Program-made: the position numbers and the translations under genes
Part shown: positions 6,854-40,219 of the stretch, one piece after another
Layout of the letters: each line of letters starts with the position of its first letter
Numbering within the stretch: the first letter of the stretch is position 1
Origin: a virus
DNA length: 64,000 bases
IMG/VR virus record: IMGVR_UViG_3300018022_000003
Span: 32,001-96,000 of that record
Direction: 5' to 3' (one strand)
The notes under the pieces: model-generated
What the model saw: the letters and a program-made list of their open reading frames with translations, nothing else
Told to the model about the DNA's origin: nothing
The model's database searches: none

Positions 6854-7243
6854 GTGACCATGAGCCGACGCTTGGTGACGACAGGCACTCCGGTCACTTG
6901 TGAAAGATGCTCCCGTAGCTATGAGTATGACCGTAGAAAGGGGCATCATACCAAGATTTGCAACTCTTGCAACGCTAACCGTAAACGGGTGGTCCGCAAG
7001 AGAAAATGCATAGAGTATAAGGGCGGCAGGTGCGAAAAGTGCGGATATTCTCGGAGTTCTAGGGCTTTGGGATTCCACCATCGGGACCGGAACCGCAAAG
7101 AGTTTACAGTATCGAGAGCGCTGTCGCTTTCATGGAGCAGGGTCAAGCAAGAACTAGACAAGTGCGATATGCTCTGTGCCAACTGTCATATGGAGGAAGA
7201 AGAGATTCTGGCGGGTAGCTCAACTGGTAGAGCGCAGCCCTGA
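6854..7243 (+). CDS. HNH (homing) endonuclease
   Basis: CERC and CNSC zinc knuckle, then CEKCG...FHHRD...ELDKCDMLCANCH; visibly lower GC than its neighbours. Confidence 0.85.
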   Translation: MTMSRRLVTTGTPVTCERCSRSYEYDRRKGHHTKICNSCNANRKRVVRKRKCIEYKGGRCEKCGYSRSSRALGFHHRDRNRKEFTVSRALSLSWSRVKQELDKCDMLCANCHMEEEEILAGSSTGRAQP

Positions 7244-7284
7244 TAAGACTGAGGTCGTGGGTCCGACTCCCATCCCGCCAACCA
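7209..7284 (+). tRNA. tRNA-Ile(GAU)
   Basis: TGGCGGG/CCCGCCA acceptor stem, anticodon loop CT-GAT-AA, T arm GTGGG/CCCAT, encoded CCA. Confidence 0.9.
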
Positions 7285-7294
7285 AGACTATAGT

Positions 7295-7369
7295 GGCTCC
7301 CTCGTCCAGCGGCCAGGACGCTCGCCCGATTAGCGAGAGACCGGGGTTCGAGTCCCTGGGGGGCTACCA
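7295..7369 (+). tRNA. tRNA-like gene with a Glu/Gln-type body and non-canonical anticodon loop CC-GAT-TA
   Basis: Complete cloverleaf (GGCTCCC/GGGGGCT, GTCC/GGAC, CTCGC/GCGAG, CGGGG-TTCGAGT-CCCTG, CCA) but with C33 and U37. Confidence 0.75.
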
Positions 7370-7371
7370 GG

Positions 7372-7482
7372 CTTACGGGGCGTAGAGGCATGAGGCGGGA
7401 CACCTCCGGGCAGTTCCAGCCGGGCACCTGGGAGCATTGCGGTACGGTGGAATAAACCAAGCTATGCGTACCGCCCCGTAGG
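7372..7482 (+). ncRNA. Candidate multibranched structured RNA
   Basis: Closing stem CTTACGGGGCG/CGCCCCGTAGG with internal hairpins; no good ORF here. Confidence 0.5.
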
Positions 7483-7498
7483 ACCGGCAGGGGGCCGT

Positions 7499-7582
7499 AT
7501 GGCCGTCCTTTTGGTAATGCTTACGTTCCTGTTCTTCGTCTTGCTCGACGTCGTCGTGTCGAGGGCCCGCAGGAGGGCATAA
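7499..7582 (+). CDS. 27-aa single-transmembrane peptide
   Basis: MAVLLVMLTFLFFVLLDVVVSRARRRA, preceded by AGGGGG. Confidence 0.4.
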   Translation: MAVLLVMLTFLFFVLLDVVVSRARRRA

Positions 7583-7590
7583 GGCTTTGG

Positions 7591-7666
7591 GCTACCGTGG
7601 CGCAACTGGCAGCGCACCGGTTTCGTAAACCGGGGGTTGAGGGTTCGACTCCCTTCGGTAGCTCCA
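7591..7666 (+). tRNA. tRNA-Thr(CGU)
   Basis: GCTACCG/CGGTAGC acceptor, CCGGT-TTCGTAA-ACCGG anticodon arm, TTCGACT T loop, CCA. Confidence 0.93.
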
Positions 7667-7670
7667 TCTT

Positions 7671-7722
7671 GGCTGGGGGTTCTGTCAGAAATGGGCAGTC
7701 TGAGAGGCTGCCGGACCCAGCC
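7671..7722 (+). ncRNA. Small structured RNA between the Thr tRNAs
   Basis: GGCTGGG/CCCAGCC closing stem with an internal GGCAGTC-TGAGA-GGCTGCC hairpin. Confidence 0.4.
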
Positions 7723-7730
7723 GCAAGTTC

Positions 7731-7806
7731 GCTGCCGTAGCTCAGTTGGCAGAGCACCGCCTTGGTAAGGCGGGGGTCGGGAGTCCGACTCTCCCCGGCA
7801 GCTCCA
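7731..7806 (+). tRNA. tRNA-Thr(GGU)
   Basis: GCTGCCG/CGGCAGC acceptor, CCGCC-TTGGTAA-GGCGG anticodon arm, CCA. Confidence 0.92.
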
Positions 7807-7812
7807 GTACTA

Positions 7813-7888
7813 GCCGCCGTAGCTCAACGGCCCAGAGTGCCTGCATGGTAGGCAGGCGACGGGGGTCCGACTCCCCCCGGCGGCCCCA
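7813..7888 (+). tRNA. tRNA-Thr(GGU), atypical second copy
   Basis: GCCGCCG/CGGCGGC acceptor, CCTGC-ATGGTAG-GCAGG anticodon arm (A32, G38), C73 discriminator, CCA. Confidence 0.8.
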
Positions 7889-7908
7889 AGCTAGCCTGTG
7901 GAGGCACC

Positions 7909-8145
7909 ATGGAAGAAGGGCAGCAGGCCCCCCCGAAACCCAAGACCACGGCGGTCCAGATAGAGCCTGTGGACCCCGAGCAGGTCCAGAAGTGCCTGGA
8001 GGGGCACGTATACGCCTCCGCCAGGTTCGTGGGCGACAGGATAGTGGAGCTTTGGGTGGCCGACTTCCTCCAGGACATCAGGGAGGTCAACAGGCTGCTC
8101 TCCACCAGGCCGGGCGAGCTTGTGAGCTGGAAGAAGCCCGACTAA
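7909..8145 (+). CDS. Hypothetical protein (78 aa)
   Basis: GGAGG RBS. Confidence 0.65.
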   Translation: MEEGQQAPPKPKTTAVQIEPVDPEQVQKCLEGHVYASARFVGDRIVELWVADFLQDIREVNRLLSTRPGELVSWKKPD

Positions 8146-8150
8146 AGTCT

Positions 8151-8339
8151 ATGTGGCGTCAGGTAAGGCTACAGCACGGGAGCACGGTGATGACCTGCTG
8201 GGTCGAGGCAAGGCCCGGGCTGCGGGCAGGCAAAGCCATCGACCTCAAGGGTGTGCCCGGCATGTGGCGGGTCCTATGGATGTCCGATACCGCTCTGGCG
8301 TCCCCCCCGAGGACGGACTGGCATGTCGGGGGGCTGTAG
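8151..8339 (+). CDS. Hypothetical protein (62 aa)
   Basis: ATG at 8151; translates as MWRQVRLQHG...HVGGL. Confidence 0.55.
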   Translation: MWRQVRLQHGSTVMTCWVEARPGLRAGKAIDLKGVPGMWRVLWMSDTALASPPRTDWHVGGL

Positions 8340-8382
8340 GGTAAACGATAGCAGGCCCTATCGCCTATAAGGTACAAGATAC

Positions 8383-8467
8383 GCTACCGTGGCACAGCGG
8401 CGACTGCACCTGCCTTGTAAGCAGGCGGCGAAGGCCCACGGCGGTTCGAGTCCGCCCGGTAGCTCCA
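8383..8467 (+). tRNA. tRNA-Thr(UGU) with an extended variable arm
   Basis: GCTACCG/CGGTAGC acceptor, CCTGC-CTTGTAA-GCAGG anticodon arm, 14-nt variable region, GGCGG-TTCGAGT-CCGCC T arm, CCA. Confidence 0.85.
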
Positions 8468-8471
8468 AGAT

Positions 8472-8545
8472 TCCGGGGTCGTCTAATGGTAGGACGCTGG
8501 GCCTTGAACCCAGAGACATTGGTCCGAATCCAGTTCCCGGAACCA
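8472..8545 (+). tRNA. tRNA-Gln(UUG), with C33
   Basis: U1-A72 acceptor TCCGGGG/TCCCGGA, CTGGG-CCTTGAA-CCCAG anticodon arm, CCA. Confidence 0.85.
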
Positions 8546-8591
8546 ACTTTTAGGTTGTAAGCCAGTTCCGAGGTATTATACAGGTGGGCCG

Positions 8592-8660
8592 CCGAGGCCA
8601 TGGGGACGCTTCCTTCTACTTTGACTTATAATCAAAACCCAGCTTCCCTGCTTTCCTCGG
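8592..8660 (+). ncRNA. UUCCUUCUAY-loop structured RNA motif, copy 1
   Basis: CCGAGG/CCTCGG, GGGGA/TCCCT and GCT/AGC stems, TCCTTCTAC loop, TTTGA/TCAAA hairpin; preceded by GTATTAT. Confidence 0.7.
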
Positions 8661-8679
8661 GGTTCCTTTAGGAGACAGG

Positions 8680-8907
8680 GTGCCTGAAAAAGAAAGGGGC
8701 ATGTGGCTGGCACAGGTTGGAAACCTTAGCCGTGAGGGGACCAAGGGTACGTTTGAGCTGTATATGGTCATCGAGGCAGAGAACCGCCAGGATGCTGAGC
8801 AGAGTTTTAGGGATAGCATCTATGGTCACCTCCTCGACGAAGTACAATGGACTCCTCCCTGCGATGAAGCACATGCTATTGTAATCGAGGTACCGGACAA
8901 AGGTTGA
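8680..8907 (+). CDS. Hypothetical protein, lower GC; start at GTG 8680 or ATG 8701
   Basis: ORF with AGGAG and AAAGGGG RBS candidates. Confidence 0.55.
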   Translation: MPEKERGMWLAQVGNLSREGTKGTFELYMVIEAENRQDAEQSFRDSIYGHLLDEVQWTPPCDEAHAIVIEVPDKG

Positions 8908-8909
8908 AG

Positions 8910-9070
8910 TTGGGTCAGGGTTCCGCATGCGGTGGCCACCATACCGCCCCTCCCTCTGCCTGCTAGTCCCCGGACTTCGGGCATGGACATGAGTGGCATG
9001 CGGCAGCGTCGAAGGCCAGCGATGACGCTCGCTGGGACGCCGCATGGGGCATCCTGGCCCAAGGTTTTTT
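8910..9070 (+). ncRNA. Candidate ~155-nt structured RNA ending in a U-tract
   Basis: TTGGGTCAGG/CCTGGCCCAA closing stem, several internal stems, then TTTTTT. Confidence 0.55.
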
Positions 9071-9092
9071 CCGAAAGGCCAGTATTATCGGA

Positions 9093-9166
9093 CGAGGCTG
9101 GCCATGGGGGCGCTTCCTTCTACACTTCAACGGTGAAACCAGCTCCCCCGGTTTCCAGCCCCTTCG
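9093..9166 (+). ncRNA. UUCCUUCUAY-loop structured RNA motif, copy 2
   Basis: GGCTGG/CCAGCC, GGGGG/CCCCC and GCT/AGC stems, TCCTTCTAC loop, TTCA/TGAA hairpin; preceded by GTATTAT. Confidence 0.7.
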
Positions 9167-9265
9167 CTCTTTTCCAGGGTTTCAGGTAGCATACAGGACA
9201 TAGGCCCGCATATCGCCCGGGCCAGCGGCATCCTGCCGCCATAGCTGCGCAAGGAGGAGGTCCAG

Positions 9266-11488
9266 ATGGACACCAAGAGGCTCAATGCCATCCTAATCCG
9301 CCGCAGGGGGCTGGTTCTCGTGCCCTCCAGCGGCAGCGACGGCCGCACGCCCAAGGCCGTGGTGGCCTCCTTCAACCTCAACCTCCAGGACCTCGGCTAT
9401 ACCCTCGCCCCGAGGGTCATCGGCAGGCTCTCCAAGCTGCCCGAGGACGAGTGCGTCCGCTTCCTGGACGGTACCATGGACACCCTCAAGGAGCTTAAGG
9501 GCGTCCGCAGCTACCGGCCGATGTACCCGAACTTCCCGCAGCAGGTCATCGACGCCAGCGACGCCGAGCTTTACATCAATGCCATCCTCCACTACTTCAG
9601 TACCTTCGTGGCCGACGCCACGGGGGACAAGGGCTGCGTGTGGCTGCCGAAGTACCGCAAGGACAGGCGGGAGCCTCTGGATGAGAAGGTGCAGCTAAGG
9701 GTCATCTCCCTCGGGGACGGCACGGAGCCGATGGAGCTGGGAAGGCAGCTAGCCACCTCCAACGCCTCCCTCTCCGACACGGACAAGGAGGACCTGCGCT
9801 TCCTGTTCGCCGAGTTCTTCGACGCCCTCCCGGAGGGCATCCCCAACAAGGAGAACCTCGCCTTCCTGGGCGGGCTGCTGTTCTCCAAGGGGGCGGCGGA
9901 CTTCGGCCCCTACTTCAGGACCGCAACCGACGTGCTCCGGCTCGCCGTGGCGCTGAGCGGCGGGGACGTGTCCCTGGCCGAGCCTTGCCTGTTCCGCAAG
10001 TTCAGGAGGGAGGAGAGGCGCAGGCTGCTCGCCCTGCTCGACCAGTGCGGGAACCTCGGCGAGGACCTGCTCCGCTGGGAGGGGAGGTGGCTCCGCCTGG
10101 GGGAGAAGCTGCACCCCGGCGACTACTTCCAGAGGTACTACCAGGCGTTCAAGGCCATCAACGACCTCCGCAACGGCACCTCCCCGCAGACCTTCCGGTC
10201 CAAGGTGGAGGAGGCGGTGCGCTCCGGGCATGTCAAGGACGCAGTCCGCCTGCTCAAGGACCGCCCCGGCGAGTTCGGGCGCAGGCTCGACCATATCCTG
10301 AGGAAGGCCCGCACCAAGGCCGCCAGGGCCGAGGCGGTGCATGCCTTCCTGGCCCATGCCGGGACCGCCAGCACCCCGGTGCTGCTCCAGATGATGGCGC
10401 ACTTCGACCACCGCTCCGAGGGGGGGGAGAGGACCGTCTTCCCGAAGGGCAGCATCGCCAAGGTCCAGACCATCCCGCCCCTGCCGGAGATGGACAAGGC
10501 CCTCAGCAGGACGGCCGCCCTGGGCATTCGCAGGACGCTGCGCAAGAGGTTCTCCGCCCTGCCCGCCCTGGGCAAGGTGTACCTGGACCCCGGCCTCAAG
10601 GACTTCCTGCTGCCGTTCAGCCAGAGGTCCGCATCCAAGTCCCTCCGCACCCTCGTGAGGGGCAGCCGTGCCCCGTTCGGGTTCGGGGACAAGAACACCG
10701 TCCGCCTGTTCATCTGGTGGAAGGACACGAAGGGGCCTGTCGCCGACGAGGAGCCGGGGAACAGCCCGGACCTCCTGTCCTACAGGTGGAACTACGATAC
10801 TAGGGTGGACCTCGACCTGTCCGCCGTCTTCTACGACAGCGAGTGGAGGGAGAAGGGGGAGGTTACCTACTACCAGCTCCGCTACGGGCGGGGCAACGGG
10901 TTCTCCTGGCACTCCGGCGACATCACGAGCGCACCCAAGGGGGCCAGCGAGTTCATCGACATCGACATCGGCAAGGCGCTGGCGCACGGGGTACGCTACG
11001 TGCTCATGAGCGTCAACGGGTACACGCAGCAGAACTTCTGCGACCTGCCGGAGTGCTATGCAGGCTGGATGCTCCGGGGGTCGCCGCAGTCCGGCGAGGT
11101 GTACGACCCGAGGACCGTCGAGGACAAGGCCGACCTGACGATGAAGGCACGGGCAGGAATCCCGCTCATCGCCGACCTGGCCGAGCGCAAGGTCATCTGG
11201 TGCGACTGCGTCATGCCCGTGCGGCGGGGGTACAACGTCAACGTGTACAACAACCGCAGCACCATCCAGACCCTTGCCACGGCCCTGACCAACGTCGCCA
11301 AGGCCAGCGTCCACGACCTGCTCCTGCTGCACGCCAAGGCACGTGGCACCCTGGTCGCCACGCCCGAGGAGGCGGACACGGTATTCTCCGTCAGGACGGG
11401 GACCCAGTACGAGCTTGAGAGGCTGGCCTCCGAGTTCATGGCCGATGCCCCGAAGGCTAAGAAGGCCCCCCTTAAGGAGGCAGCGTGA
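9266..11488 (+). CDS. Large protein with an alpha-helical N-terminal region and C-terminal TerD-like domain (possibly Ro/TROVE-related)
   Basis: C-terminal VRLFIWW, DLDLSAVFYD, HSGDITSAP and GASEFIDID are TerD hallmarks. The N-terminus has helical-type motifs TATDVLRLA and RPGEFGRRLD. Strong RBS AAGGAGGAGG. Confidence 0.8.
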   Translation: MDTKRLNAILIRRRGLVLVPSSGSDGRTPKAVVASFNLNLQDLGYTLAPRVIGRLSKLPEDECVRFLDGTMDTLKELKGVRSYRPMYPNFPQQVIDASDAELYINAILHYFSTFVADATGDKGCVWLPKYRKDRREPLDEKVQLRVISLGDGTEPMELGRQLATSNASLSDTDKEDLRFLFAEFFDALPEGIPNKENLAFLGGLLFSKGAADFGPYFRTATDVLRLAVALSGGDVSLAEPCLFRKFRREERRRLLALLDQCGNLGEDLLRWEGRWLRLGEKLHPGDYFQRYYQAFKAINDLRNGTSPQTFRSKVEEAVRSGHVKDAVRLLKDRPGEFGRRLDHILRKARTKAARAEAVHAFLAHAGTASTPVLLQMMAHFDHRSEGGERTVFPKGSIAKVQTIPPLPEMDKALSRTAALGIRRTLRKRFSALPALGKVYLDPGLKDFLLPFSQRSASKSLRTLVRGSRAPFGFGDKNTVRLFIWWKDTKGPVADEEPGNSPDLLSYRWNYDTRVDLDLSAVFYDSEWREKGEVTYYQLRYGRGNGFSWHSGDITSAPKGASEFIDIDIGKALAHGVRYVLMSVNGYTQQNFCDLPECYAGWMLRGSPQSGEVYDPRTVEDKADLTMKARAGIPLIADLAERKVIWCDCVMPVRRGYNVNVYNNRSTIQTLATALTNVAKASVHDLLLLHAKARGTLVATPEEADTVFSVRTGTQYELERLASEFMADAPKAKKAPLKEAA

Positions 11489-11676
11489 GCGAGGACAACA
11501 CCGAGTGGGTCAAGACCTGGGTAAAGCACTACAACCAGGACAACCGTGAGGGCCTCTCAGAGAAGGAGGTCCGGCGTGCCGCAGTCATAGGCAACGCCGC
11601 CTTCCATGGCAATGTAGGGGTCGGCGACGCTGCCAGGGCAGGCATAGAGGCGGTTAAGGACCTCAGAGGGGAGTAG
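11485..11676 (+). CDS. Hypothetical protein (63 aa)
   Basis: Start/stop overlap with the previous gene; AAGGAGG RBS. Confidence 0.6.
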   Translation: MSEDNTEWVKTWVKHYNQDNREGLSEKEVRRAAVIGNAAFHGNVGVGDAARAGIEAVKDLRGE

Positions 11677-11678
11677 CG

Positions 11679-12059
11679 GTGGTCCTTAGGCAGGAGCTAC
11701 GCAGGCTCGCCGAGAGGTGGCGCAGGGAGTGCGAGGAGGCCAGGGCGGAGACGGAGCGCACCAACGCCCGCCTCCTGGCAGGCAAGACCCTTACTGTCAC
11801 TTCCTCCACAGGACCTCCCCCCCTGGGCAAGGAGCAGGCTGCCAGCGAGCTGGCAGAGGTCCTCGACAGGTACCCCTTCGGGGGCATGGAGGGGCACGGC
11901 GAGGCCTGCTACTACTGCGGGGAGGAGTGTAACTCCCTGGCAGGCAACCCAGGGCGGTGGCCCATACCGCTTACCCACCCCGACGAGCCTGGGGTGGTCA
12001 AGTGGCACCATATCCGCTGCGTATCGGAGAGGCTCTCGGACGACAAGATTAGCCGGTGA
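11679..12059 (+). CDS. Hypothetical protein with C-terminal CxxC...HxxC zinc motif
   Basis: CYYCGEEC...HIRC. Confidence 0.6.
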   Translation: MVLRQELRRLAERWRRECEEARAETERTNARLLAGKTLTVTSSTGPPPLGKEQAASELAEVLDRYPFGGMEGHGEACYYCGEECNSLAGNPGRWPIPLTHPDEPGVVKWHHIRCVSERLSDDKISR

Positions 12060-12112
12060 ATGCTGGCCCTTCCTTCTATAAACCTAAGGGCTGGCCCCCC
12101 TCGGGGGGCGGC
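12052..12112 (+). ncRNA. UUCCUUCUAY-loop RNA motif, copy 3 (short variant)
   Basis: GCTGGCCCT/AGGGCTGGC stem enclosing TCCTTCTATAAACCTA. Confidence 0.5.
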
Positions 12113-12123
12113 CTTTACCAACT

Positions 12124-12231
12124 AGGTCCAGCGGTTTCCGGCGAAGAGGGGGGCGGCAGCGTCCGGGGATGGAGAGCGGGCAGCCTTCGGGCAAAACCGC
12201 TTAAGCCTCCGGCCAACGCCCCCCTCGACCT
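12124..12231 (+). ncRNA. Long interrupted hairpin RNA capped by UUCG
   Basis: Nested stems AGGTC/GACCT, GAGGGGGGCG/CGCCCCCCTC, CCGGGG/CCTCCGG, AGCGG/CCGCT and GCC-TTCG-GGC. Confidence 0.5.
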
Positions 12232-29980: not shown

Positions 29981-30041
29981 CTACATCTGTAAGCCATCCA
30001 GTAGCAAGGACTTCCTCTCCGGCCCATACTTCGGCCATACA

Positions 30042-30078
30042 AGAATCCCTGGCCTAGGCGTGTAGATTGGTGTATACT
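30042..30078 (+). promoter_or_regulatory. Bipartite promoter-like motif AGAATCC-N22-TGTATACT
   Basis: Copy upstream of the 30100 ORF. Confidence 0.7.
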
Positions 30079-37521: not shown

Positions 37522-37571
37522 TGCCCCCTACTGATAAAGGGGCGGGTAGTCCTGCCTCGTATAAAACCCGA

Positions 37572-37608
37572 AGAATCCTGCTGTAACGTGTGTATCCTGG
37601 TGTATAAT
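37572..37608 (+). promoter_or_regulatory. Bipartite promoter-like motif AGAATCC-N22-TGTATAAT
   Basis: Copy upstream of ku; includes GTGTATCC. Confidence 0.75.
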
Positions 37609-39801: not shown

Positions 39802-40184
39802 TGGTCTTCGTCTTCGGCAGCAATGAGAAGGGAATCCATGGCGGGGGGGCAGCACGCACCGCCGTGGCCCGCTACGGTGCCGTATGGGGGCAGGGGGAGG
39901 GAAGGCAGGGCAACGCCTACGCCATCCCCACATGCAGCGCCCCGATGCGCTCGGACGGGGACCGGCTTCCCCTCCCCAAGGTCAGGGAGTACGTCCACAG
40001 GTTCGTCCAGTACGCCAAGGGCCACCCCGAGGAGAAGTTCAAGGTCACCCAGGTGGGGTGCGGCCTGGCGGGCCTCGCAGCGGCGGACGTCGCCCCCATG
40101 TTCGAGGACGCCCCCCGGAACTGCTACTTTGACCTGGCATGGGAGGGGTTCCTCCCCCACCATCTATTCTGGGGCACCTACTAG
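39801..40184 (+). CDS. Macro-like phage protein (A1S_2505-type family)
   Basis: VFVFGSN..GIHGGGAA, G.GEG.QG.AYAIPT and F.VT.VGCGLAG. Confidence 0.75.
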   Translation: MVFVFGSNEKGIHGGGAARTAVARYGAVWGQGEGRQGNAYAIPTCSAPMRSDGDRLPLPKVREYVHRFVQYAKGHPEEKFKVTQVGCGLAGLAAADVAPMFEDAPRNCYFDLAWEGFLPHHLFWGTY

Positions 40185-40219
40185 AATCCCGTCCCATCCT
40201 GTGTATCCTGGTGTATACT
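40183..40219 (+). promoter_or_regulatory. Bipartite promoter-like motif AGAATCC-N22-TGTATACT
   Basis: Copy upstream of the 40240 ORF; includes GTGTATCC. Confidence 0.75.

What the first reader, a model, noticed from the sequence alone, without database searches (positions are those of the whole stretch)
8592..12112. Three copies of a covarying structured RNA motif flank the TerD-domain gene
Seen in sequence: copy 1 (8592-8660) and copy 2 (9096-9160) share outer stem-CCAU-stem-C-GCU-UCCUUCUAC-hairpin-ACC-AGC-U-stem'-G(C/G)UUU-outer stem'. The paired positions differ but stay complementary: CCGAGG/CCUCGG vs GGCUGG/CCAGCC, GGGGA/UCCCU vs GGGGG/CCCCC, and UUUGA/UCAAA vs UUCA/UGAA. The unpaired residues are nearly identical. 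Both copies sit about 8-13 nt after a GTATTAT element. Copy 3 (12062-12095) keeps UUCCUUCUAU-AAACC in a different stem and lacks the variable hairpin. Two copies lie upstream and one downstream of the 740-aa gene's operon. Inference: this is a functional RNA, either the partner of that protein or a protein-bound operator. Three non-exclusive ideas follow. (a) It is a Y-RNA analogue, since copy 2 is closed by GGCUGG/CCAGCC like Y-RNA terminal stems and has a pyrimidine-rich loop. (b) It is a decoy of the 16S anti-Shine-Dalgarno tail, since the loop contains UCCUU, the site cut by M. tuberculosis MazF-mt3. (c) It is a translational switch, since CUUCCUUCU can pair fully (with G-U) to the AGGAGGAGG RBS of the 740-aa gene. 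I do not recognise it as a named Rfam family.
Basis: partly seen in the sequence, partly recalled or inferred. Interest (0 to 1): 0.9.

Follow-up and report, generated by a model that had tools for sequence, protein, structure and literature searches.

The report
Y-RNA-like RNAs beside Ro-like TerD protein
The three repeats are genes for small folded RNAs of a large, uncatalogued family that sits beside one 700-aa protein (Ro60-like helical part plus TerD domain) in huge phages and many bacteria, which points to an undescribed relative of the Ro60/Y-RNA particle.

Summary
Copies 1 (8592-8660) and 2 (9096-9160) are as described. Copy 3 is real but was misdrawn: it spans 12051-12143 and has the same two stems plus a larger hairpin insert.

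The shared plan is a 6-bp outer stem, an internal loop (CUAU opposite RAUUU), a 9-bp inner stem, an invariant single-stranded UCCUUCUA, then a variable insert.

A covariance model found 122 copies in 37 related huge-phage loci and 134 copies in 76 of 80 bacterial loci. All are on the gene's strand and next to a homologue of the 740-aa gene. Covariation is strong (90-97% paired; score 0.76-0.93 against about 0.2 in controls). A model built from bacterial copies alone finds exactly these three sites in the 127-kb contig.

No Rfam 15 family matches. In some phages the insert is a back-to-front tRNA-like module, as in YrlA Y RNAs.

The protein has a TerD-fold domain. Its helical part is closest in predicted fold to Ro60 (Z 9.5, top two of 48,161 chains), but shows no sequence-level TROVE signal.

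Best reading (0.6): partner RNAs of a Ro60-like particle. The anti-Shine-Dalgarno decoy and RBS-switch ideas have no support.

Other agents of this scan reported the same family on other DNA.

The parts
8573..8579 (+). -10-like element GTATTAT, 12 nt before copy 1. It would place a transcript start at about 8586-8588, at the foot of the outer stem.
   Evidence: 7 occurrences in the window against 0.8 expected. Contexts are shown. Promoter function is inferred, not shown.
8592..8660 (+). RNA copy 1: outer stem, CCAU / GCUUU internal loop, 9-position inner stem, UCCUUCUA, and a 5-bp hairpin with a 7-nt loop as insert.
   Evidence: R1 60.7 bits. Bacteria-only model R2 50.0 bits, E 3e-13. The fold agrees.
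8680..8907 (+). 75-aa ORF after copy 1. It is not a general partner of the RNA.
   Evidence: tblastn finds it only in four close relatives. No Pfam or PHROG hit. One natural contig variant skips 8666-8916.
8910..9073 (+). Long irregular hairpin followed by a U6 run. It looks like a terminator and would end the copy 1 unit just before the copy 2 promoter-like element.
   Evidence: Fold -85.1 kcal/mol, z -2.56; sequence. Function is inferred.
9082..9088 (+). -10-like element GTATTAT, 7 nt before copy 2.
9096..9160 (+). RNA copy 2: same plan, with a 4-bp hairpin and tetraloop as insert.
   Evidence: R1 60.8 bits. R2 52.6 bits, E 4e-14. The fold agrees.
9266..11488 (+). 740-aa protein, the likely RNA-binding partner. 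Helical region 1-430 (residues 154-429 align with the Ro60 ring), TerD-fold beta sandwich at about 475-674, and a short C-terminal alpha/beta part.
   Evidence: AF2 models with pLDDT 80-81. TerD: Z 13.7, Foldseek E 1e-5, Pfam TerD in 2 of 20 homologues. Ro60: Z 9.5 for 2nvo_A and 9l5y_B. phrog_33734, function unknown. More than 3182 relatives.
11485..12059 (+). Two small ORFs (63 aa and 126 aa) that follow the 740-aa gene in the same operon. They are conserved only in close relatives.
   Evidence: ORF list. tblastn finds the 126-aa ORF in seven close loci only and the 63-aa ORF in none. No Pfam or PHROG hit.
12051..12143 (+). RNA copy 3 at the 3' end of the operon. It overlaps the stop codon of the 126-aa ORF. 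Family stems are present, with an insert of about 45 nt holding a G+C-rich hairpin followed by UUU.
   Evidence: R1 25.8 bits. R2 28.0 bits, E 4e-6. The fold of 12045-12150 gives the family structure. The same arrangement occurs in L066.

Best explanation
The three elements encode small structured RNAs built like Y RNAs. The 5' and 3' ends pair into a conserved stem module, which carries a variable insert. The stem module has a 6-bp outer stem ending in two G-C pairs, an internal loop (CUAU opposite RAUUU), and a 9-bp inner stem with an irregular sixth position. After the inner stem comes seven invariant single-stranded bases, UCCUUCU, followed by an A in most copies.

The two conserved unpaired patches are held a fixed 9 bp apart. 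I infer that they form a two-part binding site for the neighbouring 740-aa protein. That protein's helical part resembles the RNA-binding ring of Ro60, and a TerD-fold domain stands where Ro60 has its vWA domain.

The insert is a short hairpin in this phage and in bacteria. In other huge phages it can be a back-to-front tRNA-like module. I infer that it is displayed to other factors, as the effector module of Y RNAs is.

Shown here: the structure, by covariation; the near-exclusive genomic linkage of RNA and gene across phages and several bacterial phyla; the YrlA-type inserts in relatives; and the TerD fold.

Inferred: that the RNAs are made and released, that the protein binds them, and that the particle acts in RNA surveillance, repair or tRNA-related conflict. 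The copy next to the gene may also serve as an operator for the protein's own synthesis.
For: 1. Structure. On 23 seed copies, 95.5% of cells are paired, with 128 double-sided changes and a covariation score of 0.926. Shuffles give 0.20 and slid controls 0.10-0.21. On 100 distinct phage copies: 90.4% paired, score 0.837. On 129 distinct bacterial copies: 96.8% paired, score 0.756.

2. Conserved bases. UCCUUC is invariant, and the next base is U in 99 of 100 distinct phage copies. The internal-loop bases are 77-99% conserved. Inner-stem columns almost never carry gaps or inserts.

3. Linkage. There are 122 copies in 37 of 37 phage loci, all on the gene's strand, just upstream or downstream of it. 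There are 134 copies in 76 of 80 bacterial loci. One further locus has a clear downstream copy at relaxed settings, and another has a weak hit at the end of its contig. In whole genomes of 6.6, 8.0 and 7.1 Mb every hit lies at the gene. In the own 127-kb contig the only three hits flank the gene's operon.

4. More than a leader. Copies lie downstream of the gene. Arrays of up to seven copies sit among tRNA genes. In a 328-kb phage two copies lie 70 kb from the gene in a tRNA region.

5. Y-RNA likeness. Inserts of 88-99 nt fold as T arm, closed acceptor-like stem and D arm. They hit Rfam YrlA over its full length at 29-51 bits, E down to 1e-8, below the gathering score of 69.

6. Protein. The helical domain's two best matches among 48,161 chains are Ro60 proteins: Z 9.5, with 233-247 residues aligned. 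The next match has Z 7.0 over shorter or looser alignments.

7. Context. A Pyrinomonadaceae homologue sits beside Pnkp, Hen1 and Thg1 RNA-repair genes. This recalls rsr-yrlBA-rtcBA.

8. Own transcription signals. -10-like elements lie 7-12 nt before copies 1 and 2. A U-rich tract follows the last copy in 38 of 73 bacterial loci, against 3.7% in background.
Against: No expression or binding data exist for this element.

The Ro60 likeness rests on predicted fold alone, at a Z that the tool's own notes call indecisive for helical repeats. No sequence-level TROVE signal was found by Pfam or by a profile against solved chains, nor in one profile comparison with a single Ro60 sequence.

The classical Rsr-binding motif GNCGAAN0-1G is absent from all three copies.

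In bacteria 129 of 134 copies lie within a few hundred nt upstream of the gene. In some Paenibacillus loci the outer stem overlaps a GGAG just before the ATG. Both fit a purely cis-acting leader.

In this window copies 1 and 2 are 5' leaders of mRNAs and copy 3 is a 3' trailer. Release as small RNAs would therefore need processing that has not been shown.
Confidence: 0.6

Rival explanations
1. The RNA is a purely cis-acting, protein-binding leader. The 740-aa protein binds the stem module in its own mRNA and represses translation or promotes termination. No free RNA with a role of its own exists.
For: 129 of 134 bacterial copies lie upstream of the gene, at a median of 100 nt. A U tract follows the outer stem of the last copy in 38 of 73 loci. 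In several Paenibacillus loci the 3' strand of the outer stem overlaps a GGAG 5-6 nt before the ATG (listing). In the window, copy 2 heads the operon's 5' UTR.
Against: Some copies lie downstream of the gene. Copy 1 precedes a different ORF and copy 3 trails the operon. Arrays of up to seven copies sit among tRNA genes. Two copies lie 70 kb from the gene in a 328-kb phage. tRNA-like inserts have no role in a leader.
Confidence: 0.2
2. The RNA is a riboswitch or ion sensor. The internal loop and junction would form a ligand pocket that controls the TerD-domain gene through an outer stem that doubles as a terminator.
For: Conserved unpaired bases are framed by covarying stems and a variable hairpin. 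Tandem pairs occur upstream of one gene family in 44 of 76 bacterial loci. A U tract follows the outer stem. TerD domains bind calcium, according to the title of the PDB entry 2kxt listed.
Against: The placement arguments against a pure leader apply here too. Inserts reach 90-100 nt and include whole tRNA-like modules. The copy number is high in phages. No metabolic gene context suggests a ligand.
Confidence: 0.07
3. The RNA is a decoy or sentinel for ribosome-directed attack. The exposed UCCUUCU would mimic the 16S rRNA 3' tail, or a UCCUU-specific ribotoxin site, and would soak up or report such nucleases.
For: The seven bases are invariant and predicted to be single-stranded. One homologue has an RNA-repair gene neighbourhood. 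It is compatible with the main reading as a job for the particle.
Against: The loop lacks the CCUCC core of the anti-Shine-Dalgarno sequence. No toxin gene is linked. Nothing in these tools tests cleavage.
Confidence: 0.05
4. The RNA is a translational switch by base pairing. CUUCCUUCU would pair with the AGGAGGAGG ribosome-binding site of the 740-aa gene.
For: Taken alone, the duplex is stable at -12.4 kcal/mol.
Against: In the full 5' UTR the summed loop-RBS pair probability is 0.0, for copy 2 with the 740-aa gene and for copy 1 with the 75-aa ORF. The loop is invariant in hosts whose homologue has no such RBS nearby, such as L084 and L092. Any strong Shine-Dalgarno sequence pairs with UCCU. 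Downstream and distant copies cannot act this way.
Confidence: 0.03

Closest known systems
Bacterial and phage Y RNAs of the YrlA type with Ro60/Rsr (Rfam RF02553; Chen et al. 2014, PMC4201824)
   Same: Both are small RNAs encoded beside their protein's gene, on the same strand and in one to several copies. The 5' and 3' ends pair into a long stem with conserved unpaired bases. The stem carries a variable module, which in some members is a tRNA mimic in the order T arm, closed acceptor-like stem, D arm. The partner protein has a Ro60-like helical fold. One homologue sits next to RNA-repair genes.
   Different: The stem module differs in sequence and shape. GNCGAAN0-1G is absent, and the family has CUAU / RAUUU and UCCUUCUA instead. 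The window's copies have no tRNA-like part. No member reaches the Rfam gathering score. The protein has no detectable TROVE sequence signal and carries a TerD domain where Ro60 has a vWA domain.
Thermus phage phiLo Ro60 with Yrl1 and Yrl2 (PMC12135203; PDB 9L5Y)
   Same: Both are phage-encoded proteins with two partner RNAs just upstream of the gene. 9l5y_B is one of the two best fold matches of the helical domain.
   Different: phiLo Ro60 is a canonical HEAT-ring plus vWA protein, and its RNAs carry the CGAA motif, according to that paper. Neither feature is present here.
Autoregulatory mRNA operators of RNA-binding proteins (ribosomal-protein leaders, the threonyl-tRNA synthetase operator); named from general knowledge
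   Same: A structured element in the 5' UTR of the gene for the protein that presumably binds it. In some bacterial loci it overlaps the ribosome-binding site.
   Different: Those operators are single and strictly upstream. They do not occur in arrays, downstream of the gene, far from it, or with tRNA-like inserts.

Membership tests
YrlA / Y RNA-like (Rfam RF02553) | Scores at or above the Rfam gathering score (69 bits) | tested here: not met
   No YrlA hit on any of the three copies at E up to 10. Relatives with tRNA-like inserts reach only 29-51 bits. The 27-bit hit at 7631-7759 in the window spans two adjacent tRNA genes.
YrlA / Y RNA-like | 5' motif GNCGAAN0-1G, the proposed Rsr contact (Chen 2014) | tested here: not met
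   CGAA does not occur in 8592-8660, 9096-9160 or 12051-12143 (sequences). The family consensus has no such motif.
YrlA / Y RNA-like | tRNA-like domain (T arm, closed acceptor-like stem, D arm) | tested here: not met
   The window's inserts are a 5-bp hairpin, a 4-bp hairpin and a G+C-rich hairpin. The domain is present in some copies of related phages.
YrlA / Y RNA-like | 5' and 3' ends pair into a long stem with conserved unpaired bases, and the gene lies adjacent to the partner protein's gene | tested here: met
   Covariation. Adjacency in 37 of 37 phage loci and 76 of 80 bacterial loci.
Ro60 / Rsr (TROVE + vWA) | TROVE domain by sequence (Pfam PF05731) | tested here: not met
   No hit for the protein or for any of 20 homologues at E up to 1. 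No TROVE hit in the contig. hhalign against an actinobacterial Ro60 gave probability 0. A profile search against PDB sequences found no Ro60.
Ro60 / Rsr (TROVE + vWA) | Ring of HEAT-like helical repeats (fold) | tested here: inconclusive
   For the helical domain alone, 2nvo_A gives Z 9.5, rmsd 5.4, 247 residues aligned. 9l5y_B gives Z 9.5, rmsd 4.3, 233 aligned. They rank 1 and 2 of 48,161 chains, and the next match has Z 7.0. Foldseek found nothing. Z below 13 is not decisive for helical repeats.
Ro60 / Rsr (TROVE + vWA) | C-terminal vWA domain with a MIDAS site | tested here: not met
   Residues 475-674 form a TerD-type beta sandwich: Z 13.7 to 2qz7_B and Foldseek E 1e-5 to 3ibz.
Ro60 / Rsr (TROVE + vWA) | Binds its neighbouring small RNA | not testable with these tools
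   Needs EMSA, pull-down or a structure.
TerD domain (Pfam PF02342) | TerD fold or profile match | tested here: met
   Fold match. Pfam TerD in 2 of 20 homologues, best E 1.6e-6. The window's own protein is below Pfam detection. Sources name relatives 'TerD family protein'.
Riboswitch or cis-regulatory leader | Confined to the 5' UTR of the regulated gene | tested here: not met
   Copy 3 and many relatives lie downstream of the gene. Two copies lie 70 kb away in G001.

The most novel reading that the evidence does not exclude
A widespread, undescribed ribonucleoprotein of bacteria and huge phages. A ring-like protein related to Ro60 only in fold, fused to a TerD domain, holds small RNAs by a conserved stem module. 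It displays their variable inserts (hairpins, anticodon-arm look-alikes, whole tRNA mimics) to host or phage RNA enzymes. In phages, arrays of such RNAs among the tRNA genes would serve as decoys, sensors or tethers in conflicts over tRNA and RNA repair.
Probability: 0.45. Interest if true: 0.85.

Novelty: new variant of a known kind. Interest (0 to 1): 0.8.

Why it matters
Ro60 and Y RNAs are the only well-studied case of a ring protein whose small RNA partners gate it and tether it to other enzymes. In bacteria they are found in only a small minority of genomes.

The pair described here is absent from Rfam 15, and I found no paper on it in the library searched. Relatives of the protein turned up in at least 361 bacterial species genomes, including Paenibacillus, Brevibacillus, Bacillus, Acidobacteriota, Planctomycetota and Armatimonadota, and in dozens of huge phages.

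TROVE was found in only 1 of 121 genomes sampled from the phylum of one carrier. In that phylum the pair might fill the same niche.

Culturable carriers make the idea directly testable. The phage arrays with tRNA-like inserts suggest a new player in phage-host conflicts over tRNA.

Tried and rejected
1. Exact-pattern scan of viral contigs. The pattern used the G+C-rich clade's loop plus ACC-AGC. All 39 hits were chance matches inside coding sequence, none with the stems. The protein-anchored search found the family instead.

2. Rfam. Nothing on the copies at the gathering score or at E up to 10.

3. YrlA in the window. The only hit, 27 bits at 7631-7759, bridges two neighbouring tRNA-Thr genes.

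4. RNA evidence. No RNA holder is listed among public runs. The contigs laid down show only that peat and wetland samples hold the DNA.

5. Sequence-level Ro60 homology. Pfam, hhalign against one Ro60 sequence, and a profile against PDB sequences all found nothing. The ESM Atlas gave only an unnamed viral cluster at 0.87.

6. TROVE and RtcB elsewhere in the contig: none, in a contig that is only 41% complete.

7. The small ORFs of 75, 63, 126 and 130 aa as conserved partners: rejected. They recur only in close relatives.

8. Loop-RBS pairing: rejected as a general mechanism.

9. DNA-level repeat or mobile-element ends: rejected. Copies differ by compensatory changes and always lie on one strand.

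10. Self-cleaving ribozyme or processing signal: considered at first because of the conserved loops and the tRNA neighbourhood. No known ribozyme family matched, and nothing in the data speaks for it.

Full report
**What is in the window**

The window is part of a 127-kb virus contig that is about 41% complete, so it comes from a huge phage. The same DNA is held by many peat and wetland metagenomes.

A seven-gene tRNA array ends at 8545. Two transcription units follow.

- Unit 1 has a -10-like GTATTAT (8573-8579), RNA copy 1 (8592-8660), a 75-aa ORF (8680-8907) and a long hairpin ending in a U6 run (8910-9073).
- Unit 2 has a second GTATTAT (9082-9088), RNA copy 2 (9096-9160), the 740-aa gene (9266-11488), two small ORFs, and RNA copy 3 (12051-12143). 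Copy 3 overlaps the last stop codon.

GTATTAT occurs seven times in the window against 0.8 expected, mostly just before ORFs. It is probably this phage's -10 element. That would put the 5' ends of both transcripts at the foot of the outer stem.

**The observation**

Copy 3 was misread. Both covariance models and the fold of 12045-12150 give it the family's outer and inner stems. Its insert is about 45 nt long and contains a G+C-rich hairpin. All three copies share a C-U mismatch at the sixth position of the inner stem. In bacterial copies the same position is mostly a U-G pair, so this is a conserved irregularity in the helix.

**The family**

The 740-aa protein has homologues in 37 loci from viral contigs of 12.8 to 328 kb, with G+C from about 25 to 60%. 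A plain search for the loop in those loci showed the same plan everywhere. I aligned 23 short copies and counted pairs for the structure I had read off.

| Set | Cells paired | Double-sided changes | Covariation score |
|---|---|---|---|
| 23 seed copies | 95.5% | 128 | 0.926 |
| 100 distinct phage copies | 90.4% | 550 | 0.837 |
| 129 distinct bacterial copies | 96.8% | 560 | 0.756 |

For the seed set, shuffles gave 0.20 and slid controls 0.10-0.21.

Model R1 found 122 copies in the 37 phage loci. All lie on the gene's strand, clustered directly upstream and downstream of it. UCCUUC is invariant in 100 distinct copies, and the next base is U in 99 of them. The internal loop is 77-99% conserved, and the inner stem keeps its length.

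**Bacteria**

The protein family is large, with more than 3182 relatives, and many sit on bacterial chromosomes. Three bacterial loci fetched by exact protein all have one or two copies just upstream. A scan of species-representative genomes found 361 with a relative.

In the best 80 loci, R1 found 134 copies in 76 loci, all on the gene's strand. Of these, 129 are upstream and 5 just downstream. Of the four loci without a hit:

- one has no upstream sequence on its contig;
- one has a downstream copy at relaxed settings;
- one has a weak hit at the contig end;
- Bacillus toyonensis has none.

In three whole genomes of 6.6-8.0 Mb, every hit lies at the gene.

Model R2 was built from the bacterial copies alone. 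It recovers exactly the three window copies and nothing else in the contig. That makes membership non-circular.

**Is it a free RNA or only a leader?**

Several facts argue for more than a leader:

- copies downstream of the gene;
- copy 1 ahead of an unrelated ORF;
- arrays of up to seven copies among tRNA genes;
- two copies in a tRNA region 70 kb from the gene in a 98%-complete, 328-kb phage.

In bacteria a U-rich tract follows the last copy in 38 of 73 loci, against 3.7% in background. That fits a separate small transcript or an attenuator. In some Paenibacillus loci the outer stem overlaps a GGAG close to the ATG, so a second role as an operator is plausible.

**Y-RNA likeness**

In several phages the insert is 88-99 nt long. 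It folds as T arm, acceptor-like stem closed by a small loop, then D arm. This is a tRNA body wired back to front, exactly as in YrlA (Chen et al. 2014, PMC4201824). Rfam's YrlA model matches these copies over its full length at 29-51 bits, below its cut-off of 69, through the tRNA-like part only. One copy (L069) carries a tRNA-shaped insert in the normal order. The stem module itself has no counterpart in YrlA, and the Rsr motif GNCGAAN0-1G is absent.

**The protein**

Pfam finds nothing in the window's protein. PHROGs gives a family of unknown function. The AlphaFold model (pLDDT 80) has a helical region (1-430), a beta sandwich and a short C-terminal part.

- The sandwich is TerD-like: Z 13.7, Foldseek E 1e-5, and Pfam TerD in 2 of 20 homologues.
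- Folded alone, the helical part has as its two best matches among 48,161 chains the Ro60 of Deinococcus and of Thermus phage phiLo. Both give Z 9.5 over 233-247 residues, and the next match has Z 7.0. Xenopus Ro60 follows at Z 5.9.
- Foldseek and all sequence-level tests are negative.

The Ro60 likeness is therefore suggestive, not proven. It is a separate line of evidence that agrees with what the RNA suggests. A Pyrinomonadaceae homologue lies next to Pnkp, Hen1 and Thg1 genes. That parallels the link of rsr and its Y RNAs with rtcBA.

- (a) Y-RNA analogue: this is the best reading, though the stem sequence he cited is only one covarying variant.
- (b) 16S-tail decoy: it cannot be tested here and has nothing specific in its favour.
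- (c) RBS switch: the duplex alone is stable (-12.4 kcal/mol), but the predicted pairing probability in the full leader is 0.0. The placement of many copies also rules it out as a general mechanism.

**Population data**

Contigs from four peat and wetland runs show no variant inside copies 1 or 2. Variants lie in the 75-aa ORF and in the spacers. One contig skips 8666-8916, which removes that ORF.

**Earlier notes of this scan**

After I had recorded my own reading, a look-up showed that other agents reported the same RNA-protein pair on at least seven other genomes, with the same closest known system. Those are unchecked AI notes. I count them as agreement, not as evidence.

**Verdict**

This is a real, strongly covarying RNA family tied to one protein family across phages and bacteria. 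No Rfam 15 family matches it, and the papers I searched do not describe it. It most likely forms a Ro60/Y-RNA-like particle (confidence 0.6). Expression and binding remain to be shown.

Noticed in passing
window 8666-8916: One contig of a peat metagenome run joins 8666 to 8916 with 8 other letters between. That strain variant lacks the 75-aa ORF between RNA copies 1 and 2.
   Followed up: no
window 2188, 5195, 5979, 8573, 9082, 58847 (+) and 59183 (-): GTATTAT occurs 7 times against 0.8 expected, mostly shortly before ORF starts. It is probably this phage's -10 element.
   Followed up: partly
window 30038-30078, 37568-37608, 40179-40219: A second repeated promoter-like motif (AGAATCC ... TGTGTATCCTGGTGTATAMT) occurs three times, in two cases about 15-20 nt before an RBS and ATG (families D14 and D20).
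   Followed up: no
L070 3001-5112, L055 3001-5178; L070 2187-2265 and 5843-5917, L077 2273-2348: The homologue has one in-frame stop in two phage loci. tRNAs with anticodon CTA (amber suppressor type) lie nearby in L070 and L077. These phages may read TAG as sense.
   Followed up: no
L085 96-5421: In a Pyrinomonadaceae genome the homologue is divergently adjacent to Pnkp, Hen1, a Thg1-like gene and a small kinase. This is an RNA-repair gene cluster.
   Followed up: partly
L069 2665-2797: One phage copy carries a tRNA-shaped insert in the normal gene order rather than back to front. ARAGORN calls it a tRNA with an odd anticodon loop.
   Followed up: partly
L072 463-862: A tmRNA gene lies in a huge-phage locus near the tRNA array and the RNA copies.
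   Followed up: no
window 7209-8545: The tRNA array holds four tRNA-Thr genes covering three anticodons, two tRNA-Ile(GAT) and one tRNA-Gln. The same order recurs in close relatives L042-L044.
   Followed up: no
L169 4784-4945 (G001:C1:104784-104945): In a 328-kb phage two RNA copies lie among tRNA genes and small ORFs, 70 kb from the homologue.
   Followed up: partly
genomes G006, G129, G130, G131 and a sample of 121 genomes from the phylum of G006: Carriers of the TerD-type protein that were checked have no TROVE gene. TROVE was found in only 1 of the 121 sampled genomes. The two proteins may replace each other.
   Followed up: partly
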